Positions 41,375 through 60,086 of a DNA stretch of 64,000 nucleotides are shown piece by piece. Location: positions 96,001-160,000 of IMG/VR virus record IMGVR_UViG_3300032236_001024, one strand, 5' to 3'. Source of the stretch: a virus. Lineage: Duplodnaviria; Caudoviricetes. The first letter of the stretch is position 1. The number at the start of each line of letters is the position of its first letter. Below the pieces are notes generated by a model. That model was given only the letters and a program-made list of their open reading frames with translations. It was not told the origin of the DNA and did no database searches. A program made the translations under genes and the position numbers.

Positions 41375-41466
41375 TGGTAGGGGCTACAGGATTCGAACCT
41401 ATTCGAGAACGCTAATCGGGCGCTAGAAGGTTTATAAGACCTCCCTGTGTACCAACACCAACCCCC
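41375..41466 (-). tRNA. non-canonical tRNA with TAT anticodon and long variable arm
   Basis: GTGT-TGGT-ACAC D arm, GGAGGT-CTTATAA-ACCTTC anticodon arm, about 23-nt V arm, AGG-TTCGAAT-CCT, ACCA. Confidence 0.7.
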
Positions 41467-54683: not shown

Positions 54684-54759
54684 TGGTGCTGCCAGAGAGA
54701 TTCGAACTCCCGACAACCTGATTACTAATCAGGTGCTCTACCAACTGAGCTATGGCAGC
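54684..54759 (-). tRNA. tRNA-Thr(AGT)
   Basis: GCTGCCA/TGGCAGC acceptor, CCTGA-TTAGTAA-TCAGG, CCA. Confidence 0.88.
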
Positions 54760-58138: not shown

Positions 58139-58216
58139 TGGAGGGGAAGATGGGAGTCGAACCCACCTAAAAAGGTTTTGCAGACCTTGCCATAACCGCT
58201 CTGGACTCACTTCCCC
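58139..58216 (-). tRNA. tRNA-Cys(GCA)
   Basis: AAGGT-CTGCAAA-ACCTT, U discriminator, CCA. Confidence 0.85.
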
Positions 58217-58226
58217 GTATAAATGA

Positions 58227-58299
58227 TGGTGGAGTAAGTGGGACTCGAACCCACCTCAGATTCCTTGCAAAGGATTCCTGCTTGCCCTGAGCCTACCCC
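58227..58299 (-). tRNA. tRNA-Ala(TGC), atypical D arm
   Basis: G3:U70 pair, TTTGCAA loop, GTGGG-TTCGAGT-CCCAC, ACCA. Confidence 0.65.
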
Positions 58300-58308
58300 A
58301 ATTCTTAT

Positions 58309-59756: not shown

Positions 59757-60045
59757 TACAGATTCAACTTTTGTTTGTTTTCAAGACAAATTTTGGTTTG
59801 TTGCGGAACTGAATCTAAACTCAACAGGATACACTTACTGTGGATTCGAACCACTAAGTCTGATTAAAAGTCAGATTGATAACCAATATCAAGTAATTGT
59901 TTGCTGAAGGTATCCTAAAACTCAACAGACTGACCCCTACTTTCATTTTTTTATAGTGGATTTCATCGAAACATAACCACTTTGATTGCCTGTGGGGCAA
60001 TTACCTAGCTTTTTTGATAGGTTTATGCTGAATAGTCAATCTAAA
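59757..60045 (-). ncRNA. array of three structured RNA units with tRNA-arm mimics
   Basis: Covarying closing stems, shared TTC(A/C)GCA motif and CTGTTGAG-TTT(T)AG linkers; inserts contain anticodon-like arms. Confidence 0.7.
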
Positions 60046-60057
60046 TTCTATTAACGT

Positions 60058-60086
60058 ATATTAAAGCATTCTCGACACAGTGTCAA
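60058..60086 (-). promoter_or_regulatory. sigma70 promoter for RNA array/DUF2828
   Basis: TTGACA-N17-TAATAT ending about 13 nt before the first unit. Confidence 0.7.

What the first reader, a model, noticed from the sequence alone, without database searches (positions are those of the whole stretch)
59835..59896. tRNA-Lys(UUU) mimic embedded in the middle unit
In transcript order: hairpin TTGATA-TTGGT-TATCAA, anticodon arm TCTGA-CTTTTAA-TCAGA, T arm GTGG-TTCGAAT-CCAC, closed by a short TTACT/AGTAA stem with no CCA. tRNA-Lys(UUU) is the target of PrrC and PARIS (established), and no true Lys tRNA occurs in this window. A non-chargeable mimic fits a decoy or damage sensor (inference).
Basis: partly seen in the sequence, partly recalled or inferred. 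Interest (0 to 1): 0.72.

Follow-up and report, generated by a model that had tools for sequence, protein, structure and literature searches.

The report
Phage tRNA mimic on Ro-like handle
A T4-like phage encodes a small RNA shaped like lysine tRNA but unable to carry an amino acid; it is fixed to a conserved "handle" just upstream of a gene for a Ro60-like RNA-binding ring protein, and it probably acts as bait for host enzymes that recognise tRNA anticodons.

Summary
The element is real. D, anticodon (UUU) and T arms lie at 59835-59896 (minus strand; Rfam tRNA 30.8 bits), with no 7-bp acceptor stem and no CCA. It is the cargo of unit 2 in a three-unit array of 'handle' RNAs (7-bp clamp plus CAGCAA) upstream of a DUF2828 gene whose model folds like Ro60. 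In 28 relatives the arms covary, while the acceptor side is not conserved: a maintained mimic, not a decaying tRNA gene. Two corrections. The genome has a true tRNA-Lys(UUU) 14 kb away. The anticodon is not fixed: near-identical bodies carry UUU, UCU or UAU, and a sister lineage has let this arm drift. Across the family, handles display anticodon loops far above chance (61/171 versus 1.8). These are never duplicated within an array, and Lys-UUU, Arg-UCU and Thr-UGU are enriched over true phage tRNAs; two of these are prime nuclease targets. Best reading: Y-RNA-like bait, most likely a decoy for anticodon nucleases (about 40%, untested). It is not a YrlA member. I found no published description; this scan has reported the same system in at least 13 other genomes.

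The parts
60058..60086 (-). sigma70-type promoter, TTGACA-17-TAATAT (10/12), upstream of the array
   Evidence: best site in the region, but 5 sites found versus 4.7 expected, so position is the only support
59926..60042 (-). handle unit 1: 8-bp clamp, CAGCAT motif, cargo of about 95 nt of unknown type, partly conserved in L001 and L002
59825..59916 (-). handle unit 2 (92 nt): clamp AGGATAC/GTATCCT (59916-59910/59832-59826), CTT linker, CAGCAA (59906-59901), tRNA-like cargo
   Evidence: clamp 100% paired in 28 relatives with 31 two-sided changes
59835..59896 (-). tRNA-Lys(UUU)-like cargo (the finding); remnant acceptor-like stem TTACT/AGTAA, no CCA
59877..59891 (-). D-like arm, 5 bp, loop UUGGU with G18 G19
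   Evidence: 85% paired, 47 two-sided changes (shuffle max 22)
59859..59875 (-). anticodon arm, 5 bp, loop CUUUUAA (Lys UUU); carries U36AAUC|A41, the AriB cleavage sequence of E. coli tRNA-Lys
   Evidence: PMC12409363
59840..59854 (-). T arm, 4 bp, loop UUCGAAU
   Evidence: GTGG/CCAC becomes GCGG/CCGC in L001
59759..59816 (-). handle unit 3 with a stand-alone tRNA-Ser(UGA)-type anticodon stem-loop (59790-59774, loop CUUGAAA), directly before the ribosome-binding site (59753-59748)
   Evidence: the same loop on different stems in L001 and L002
58309..59739 (-). DUF2828/DUF7788 gene, 476 aa; model folds like Ro60 (helical N-terminal part plus vWA-like C-terminal part)
   Evidence: 13 best Foldseek hits are all Ro60; best is phage phiRo60 9kop, E 4.5e-8, TM 0.56

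Best explanation
Unit 2 is a Y-RNA-like small RNA with two modules. (1) The terminal clamp plus CAGCAA is a handle bound by the Ro60-like DUF2828 ring encoded just downstream (inferred, about 75%). (2) The cargo keeps the tRNA elbow and the anticodon arm but has lost the acceptor end, so it looks like tRNA-Lys(UUU) to anticodon-reading enzymes and cannot be charged (shown at sequence level). The array is probably transcribed with the gene from the upstream promoter and cut at the U-rich linkers (inferred). Each array carries a small non-redundant set of anticodon baits, here Lys-UUU and Ser-UGA. The most likely job is to engage host tRNA-attacking enzymes such as the anticodon nucleases PrrC, PARIS AriB or OLD as a competing or trapping substrate, stabilised by the ring, while the phage's separate true tRNAs keep translation running (inferred; this last step is the weakest).
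For: Covariation in all four helices with G18G19, C32U33, A37, T54T55C56 and A58 invariant, while the acceptor side is only 2-5 bp and unconserved (the GG and T-loop columns served as alignment anchors). Handles occur in 77/80 DUF2828 loci and the protein is Ro60-like by fold. Short units carry canonical 7-nt anticodon loops in 61/171 cases versus 1.8 (max 6) in shuffles, and A34 is nearly absent, as in real tRNAs. The repertoire is skewed against 1321 true tRNAs from the same loci: Lys-UUU 16% vs 2.8%, Arg-UCU 16% vs 2.6%, Thr-UGU 11% vs 3.7%; 106/112 have U36 or A36. None of 29 multi-unit loci repeats an anticodon, against 5.3 expected (P 0.002). Lys-UUU and Thr-UGU are the prime AriB targets (PMC12409363), Thr-UGU is the P2-OLD target (PMC12445682), and tRNA-Lys and tRNA-Tyr are the PrrC and retron-Eco7 targets (PMC11555353). 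This unit has the AriB sequence U36AAUC|A41 plus U16, whereas the phage's true tRNA-Lys has G41. U39, essential for AriB, is present in 61/63 Lys mimics versus 65/108 true viral tRNA-Lys. No RtcB or Rnl2-type ligase was found in this complete genome.
Against: There are no binding, expression or cleavage data. The complete AriB site is not enriched in Lys mimics (8/63 vs 9/108, P 0.43), and the U39 bias could reflect A/U-rich stems. AriB needs contacts outside the anticodon arm, which the commoner anticodon-only units lack. Arg-UCU is as frequent as Lys-UUU and is not a target in the papers I read. The middle anticodon base switches readily, and a sister lineage lets the arm decay while keeping the T arm. 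Many units carry no anticodon at all. Published phage escape from these nucleases is by resistant or abundant true tRNAs, and the word 'decoy' does not occur in those papers. A cleavable bait is a weak inhibitor of a catalytic nuclease. Counts are of related phages and are not independent.
Confidence: 0.42

Rival explanations
1. Classical Y-RNA role: the tRNA-like cargo is a stable tether or gate that links the Ro-like ring to host RNA decay or repair enzymes (PNPase, RtcB, modification enzymes). The elbow matters and the anticodon is secondary.
For: YrlA and Yrn1 work this way (PMC4201824), and phage phiRo60 with Yrl1/2 binds and attenuates host PNPase (PMC12135203). The T loop is the part kept in the sister lineage. 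Many family units are YrlA-like permuted elbows scoring 36-41 bits on RF02553.
Against: It does not explain the many anticodon-only cargoes, their canonical loops, the skewed spectrum or the lack of duplicates. No RNA ligase gene was found in this genome.
Confidence: 0.27
2. The baits recruit or titrate non-defence anticodon readers: t6A (TsaD), i6A (MiaA) or U34-modifying enzymes, synthetases, or the ribosomal decoding site, to redirect host tRNA modification or translation towards phage needs.
For: 95% of displayed anticodons have U36 or A36 followed by A37, which are the t6A and i6A substrate classes (established knowledge). U-N-U swaps preserve the t6A signal.
Against: t6A is also a positive determinant for PrrC (title of a paper cited in PMC12409363), so the same pattern fits the decoy reading. 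No clear benefit of sequestering these enzymes is known.
Confidence: 0.13
3. Sensor or cis-regulatory leader: the array stays part of the DUF2828 mRNA, and cleavage of the mimic or binding of the protein to the handles controls expression of the gene.
For: The units form the leader of the gene, and unit 3 ends 5 nt before the ribosome-binding site. A handle overlaps the start region in many relatives. The Salmonella rsr-yrl-rtc operon responds to damaged tRNAs (PMC7790460, title and abstract start only).
Against: In relatives, tRNA-like units often lie kilobases from the gene or downstream of it (L654, L658), which fits free small RNAs. Autoregulation could apply to the last unit only.
Confidence: 0.1
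4. A decaying tRNA-Lys gene that happens to lie in a handle unit, or a tRNA precursor from which a working tRNA is cut.
For: Sequence ancestry from a tRNA is plain, some relatives keep a canonical tRNA D arm, and the sister lineage is degenerate.
Against: D stems of unrelated sequence are fully compensated and the anticodon stems are 100% paired, while only the acceptor stem is lost, in 28 units. There is no 7-bp acceptor stem and no 8-9 linker. An intact tRNA-Lys exists elsewhere in the genome.
Confidence: 0.04

Closest known systems
YrlA-type bacterial and phage Y RNAs with Ro60/Rsr (Rfam RF02553; PMC4201824)
   Same: Small RNA next to a Ro60-fold gene; terminal stem plus a tRNA-like domain that keeps D- and T-loop invariants; generally not chargeable.
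   Different: [quoted passage not shown] The motif is CAGCAA, not GNCGAAN0-1G. The partner is DUF2828/DUF7788, without a Pfam TROVE hit. No RF02553 match in this genome.
Thermus phage phiLo phiRo60 with Yrl1/Yrl2 (PMC12135203; PDB 9KOP, 9L5Y)
   Same: Phage Ro60 ring with tandem Y-like RNAs directly upstream; best structural match (E 4.5e-8, TM 0.56).
   Different: 14% identity; those RNAs were defined by CGAA motifs; no anticodon display was reported in the parts I read; the function shown is PNPase attenuation.
Dictyostelium Class I RNAs (Rfam RF01414; PMC7919456)
   Same: Short covarying terminal stem, adjacent conserved motif ending CAGCAA, variable middle, ends AAG/CUGU; Rfam gives a weak hit exactly on unit 2 (22 bits, E 0.62).
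   Different: Eukaryotic; below the gathering score (41.5); the known partner is the RRM protein Rnp1A; no tRNA-like cargo described; homology untested.
Phage counter-defence tRNAs (T5 tRNA-Lys against PARIS, PMC11464382; tRNA-Tyr/Lys against retron-Eco7/PrrC, PMC11555353)
   Same: Phage RNA aimed at the same anticodons in tRNA-rich regions.
   Different: Those are chargeable tRNAs that replace the host pool by resistance or abundance; this RNA cannot be charged and keeps the sensitive sequence.

Membership tests
tRNA-Lys(UUU) gene | 7-bp acceptor stem with discriminator and CCA (encoded or addable) | tested here: not met
   At most 5 bp, pair probability 0.02 or less, 2-5 bp in relatives; the ends are locked in the handle
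tRNA-Lys(UUU) gene | 5-bp anticodon stem with 7-nt Y32-U33-UUU-A37-A38 loop | tested here: met
   the same stem occurs in 6/118 sampled prokaryotic tRNA-Lys
tRNA-Lys(UUU) gene | Elbow invariants G18 G19, T54 U55 C56, A58 | tested here: met
   present here and in all 28 aligned relatives (the GG and T-loop columns were alignment anchors)
tRNA-Lys(UUU) gene | Core: 2-nt 8/9 linker, R15:Y48, A21, 5-bp T stem | tested here: not met
   no linker, U15, U21, 4-bp T stem with an A-A mismatch
YrlA-type Y RNA | Encoded next to a Ro60/TROVE orthologue | tested here: inconclusive
   Ro60 by fold but no TROVE Pfam hit and no sequence match to solved Ro60s
YrlA-type Y RNA | GNCGAAN0-1G motif in the Ro-binding stem | tested here: not met
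   the handle has CUU-CAGCAA; motif definition from PMC4201824
YrlA-type Y RNA | Permuted tRNA-like domain (T arm, closed acceptor stem, D arm) | tested here: not met
   the order here is D, anticodon, T; permuted cargoes exist in other units of the family
YrlA-type Y RNA | RF02553 score at or above gathering (69 bits) | tested here: not met
   no match in this genome; permuted sister units score 36-41 bits
Y RNA (functional definition) | Bound by the Ro60-like protein in vivo; carries tRNA-type modifications | not testable with these tools
   needs a pull-down or EMSA and modification mapping
Dictyostelium Class I RNA | Terminal stem plus 11-nt motif, RF01414 score at or above 41.5 bits | tested here: not met
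   the architecture matches but the score is 22 bits
Anti-nuclease decoy RNA | Binds or is cleaved by an anticodon nuclease and protects host tRNA | not testable with these tools
   only sequence proxies: AriB site present here, not enriched family-wide

The most novel reading that the evidence does not exclude
Phages use a Ro60-like ring as a presenter for a swappable library of non-chargeable anticodon decoys (Lys-UUU, Arg-UCU, Thr-UGU, Ser-UGA, Tyr-GUA and others) that neutralise tRNA-targeting immunity. This would be an RNA-programmed counter-defence paired with nuclease-resistant true tRNAs, with the displayed anticodons predicting the targets of still unknown host nucleases.
Probability: 0.3. 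Interest if true: 0.85.

Novelty: new variant of a known kind. Interest (0 to 1): 0.6.

Why it matters
The function of tRNA-like domains in bacterial and phage Y RNAs is an open question (PMC4201824). Here the domain displays a readable anticodon and comes in a skewed, non-redundant repertoire, which turns the question into specific tests against PARIS, PrrC, OLD and retron nucleases. If the decoy reading holds, it is a new type of phage counter-defence, and the anticodon spectrum is a map of which tRNAs hosts attack (Arg-UCU would be a prediction). It also gives DUF2828, matched in 711 records of the phage collection, a candidate ligand. Practically, such units are mis-annotated as tRNA genes (for example the tRNA-Ser and tRNA-OTHER calls that overlap handle units in Cronobacter phage S13).

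Tried and rejected
Default Rfam and ARAGORN runs miss the element; it appears only with permissive filters. Folding energy alone is not significant. A profile search of the protein alignment against PDB sequences found no Ro60; only the fold search did. No RNA holder was listed for the region; this is no evidence either way. A T4-type Rnl1 search found nothing, but its controls did not ring either, so it is uninformative. The MAFFT alignment A2 slipped at the T loop, so pairs were counted on a motif-anchored alignment instead. One search used a pattern off by one base and was discarded. The mimic subset was biased against GAC/GTC-type stems and that towards them; one search is the corrected count. 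The idea that Lys mimics are generally more host-like or AriB-sensitive than true phage tRNA-Lys was tested: the full site is not enriched, only U39 is. The idea that the closing 31-39 pair matches the cognate tRNA held only partly (Ser-UGA, Arg-UCU). Paper searches found no description of CAGCAA-handle RNAs or of anticodon-decoy RNAs; the library lacks most subscription papers. Complex prediction was not run because it cannot score an RNA partner. No handle units were found near the gene in KVP40 or Ochrobactrum phage OC with my parser.

Full report
Observation. Rfam's tRNA model scores it 30.8 bits, E 8e-4, and ARAGORN calls tRNA-Lys at a lowered threshold. A paired anticodon arm followed by a T arm occurs in this genome only here and at tRNA genes, and never in 30 shuffled genomes. 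The three arms have pair probabilities of 0.67-0.98, but the closing acceptor-like stem only 0.01-0.02. The genome is a complete 202-kb T4-like phage (gp23 hit) and encodes a canonical tRNA-Lys(UUU) about 14 kb outside the window, so the mimic does not stand in for a missing gene.

Context. The element is the cargo of the middle of three units, each built as a 7-8-bp terminal clamp, a 3-4-nt linker, C(A/C)GCA(A/T), a variable cargo and the return strand ending CUG. A TTGACA-17-TAATAT site lies upstream. The array ends just before the ribosome-binding site of a 476-aa DUF2828/DUF7788 gene. An AlphaFold model of that protein (pLDDT 76) has Ro60 structures as its 13 best matches, led by the Thermus phage Ro60 (E 4.5e-8, TM 0.56). 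Of 80 viral loci encoding relatives, 77 contain such handle units.

Is it maintained? Pattern scans of viral contigs gave 28 distinct units with the same D-anticodon-T cargo, at 46-98% core identity. On a motif-anchored alignment the clamp and the anticodon stem are 100% paired with 31 two-sided changes each (shuffle maxima 15 and 13), the T stem 96% with 29 (max 16), and the D stem 85% with 47 (max 22); slid controls fall to 20-61%. D stems of unrelated sequence (TGATA/TATCA, CGCGA/TCGCA, TGTCT/AGACA, GCTCA/AGAGC) keep the pairing. C32, U33, A37, C56 and A58 are invariant. The acceptor side is only 2-5 bp and unconserved. The nearest relative (L001, 81% protein identity) differs by compensatory changes in the T stem and in the remnant acceptor stem. 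These counts do not correct for relatedness, but this pattern is the opposite of a decaying tRNA gene: the part needed for charging is gone and the rest is kept.

Is it Lys-specific? Not strictly. Among anticodon-blind samples, full-body cargoes are Arg-UCU 10, Lys-UUU 4, Phe-GAA 3 of 23. A well-supported clade has UUU, UCU and UAU on almost identical bodies. Positional orthologues in a sister lineage (72-80% protein identity) keep the handle and T arm but have weak D arms and loops reading UAU, UUU-AC, UUU-GC or nothing canonical. Yet the family as a whole clearly displays anticodons. Of 171 short units, 87 close a 7-nt loop (shuffles 24, max 36) and 61 have a canonical anticodon loop (shuffles 1.8, max 6), with A34 almost absent. 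Against 1321 true tRNAs from the same loci, Lys-UUU (16% vs 2.8%), Arg-UCU (16% vs 2.6%), Thr-UGU, Ser-UGA and Tyr-GUA are enriched, and 106 of 112 have U36 or A36. No multi-unit locus repeats an anticodon (0 of 29; 5.3 expected). This looks like a curated set of baits.

Mechanism. Shown: structure by covariation, loss of the acceptor end, tight linkage to a Ro60-fold gene, and a skewed anticodon repertoire. Inferred: transcription and processing into separate RNAs, binding of the handle by the protein, and the identity of whatever reads the anticodon. For the last step I favour anticodon nucleases. Lys-UUU and Thr-UGU are the main AriB substrates (PMC12409363), Thr-UGU is the P2-OLD substrate (PMC12445682), and PrrC and retron-Eco7 take Lys and Tyr (PMC11555353). 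This unit has the AriB cleavage sequence U36AAUC|A41, while the phage's real tRNA-Lys has G41, a position where a change to C impairs cleavage. The genome lacks RtcB and Rnl2-type ligases, which weakens a phage-run repair scaffold. Against this, the full AriB site is present in only 8 of 63 Lys mimics, no more than in true viral tRNA-Lys; AriB needs contacts beyond the anticodon arm; and many units show no anticodon. I put the decoy mechanism at about 0.4, a classical tether or gate role at about 0.27, titration of modification enzymes or ribosomes at about 0.13, a cis-acting sensor at 0.1 and decay at 0.04.

Comparison. It works like a Y RNA: a constant protein-binding handle plus a tRNA-shaped cargo beside a Ro60-fold gene. 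It is not a YrlA member: the GNCGAA motif is absent, the tRNA domain is not permuted, and RF02553 does not match. Other units of the family are permuted like YrlA and score 36-41 bits against a cut-off of 69. It is not a tRNA gene. The handle resembles Dictyostelium Class I RNAs (weak Rfam hit on unit 2; features in PMC7919456), a lead that I did not test. Phage Ro60 with upstream Y-like RNAs is known (PMC12135203), and a review notes ROT/TROVE proteins in jumbo phages (PMC7824862), but I found no paper on CAGCAA-handle RNAs or on anticodon display by Y-like RNAs.

Verdict. Observation confirmed; interpretation partly supported. New variant of a known kind; interest 0.6. The same system has been noted by this scan in at least 13 other genomes; those notes are not independent support.

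Noticed in passing
window 59790-59774 (-): Unit 3 cargo is a bare Ser-UGA-type anticodon stem-loop; the same loop sits on different stems in the gene-proximal unit of L001, L002 and L275, while other relatives show Cys-GCA or Gln-UUG there.
   Followed up: partly
window 60042-59926 (-): Unit 1 cargo (about 95 nt) is not tRNA-like; a GTGGT...CCAC stem and an A-rich tail are shared with L001 and L002. Unexplained.
   Followed up: no
L002:1227-1320, L660, L662, L674: Positional orthologues of unit 2 in a sister lineage keep the handle and T arm but have degenerate D and anticodon arms.
   Followed up: yes
L081 1926-1975(-), L087 1819-1867(-): Contigs named as giant-virus MAGs (GVMAG) carry handle units with a permuted tRNA-Lys(UUU)-like cargo; L093 (also GVMAG) has a similar CAGCAA-led Lys element. 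The family may extend to eukaryotic viruses; contig origin not verified.
   Followed up: no
window 58227-58304 (-): Atypical tRNA-Ala(UGC)-like gene with G3-U70 and CCA, missed by default ARAGORN and Rfam tRNA (weak match to tmRNA ends), next to a tRNA-Cys(GCA) at 58139-58216.
   Followed up: no
window 54684-54759 (-): tRNA-Thr with anticodon AGU (A34), unusual in bacteria and phages.
   Followed up: no
window 41375-41466 (-): ARAGORN tRNA-Ile(UAU) of 92 nt with no Rfam match at gathering score; possibly a non-canonical tRNA.
   Followed up: no
G000:C1:23988-24355 (outside the window): ARAGORN at a lowered threshold reports a permuted tmRNA with tag ANDNNAYDVALAA; from my own knowledge this type is typical of Alphaproteobacteria and may hint at the host.
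   Followed up: no
L009, L013, L059, L062-L078, upstream of the DUF2828 gene: Many relatives carry a long (about 200-nt) conserved structured cargo inside a handle; in the loci scanned it had no Rfam match at gathering score.
   Followed up: no
L654:4896-5138 (Cronobacter phage S13): The annotated tRNA-Ser and tRNA-OTHER overlap a handle unit with a permuted tRNA-like cargo, so they are probably mis-annotations.
   Followed up: partly
Sampled viral tRNA-Lys(UUU) genes have U29-A41 in 16/108 cases versus 54/118 in prokaryotic genomes (P 4e-7), in line with avoidance of the AriB site, though the viral sample is mixed.
   Followed up: partly
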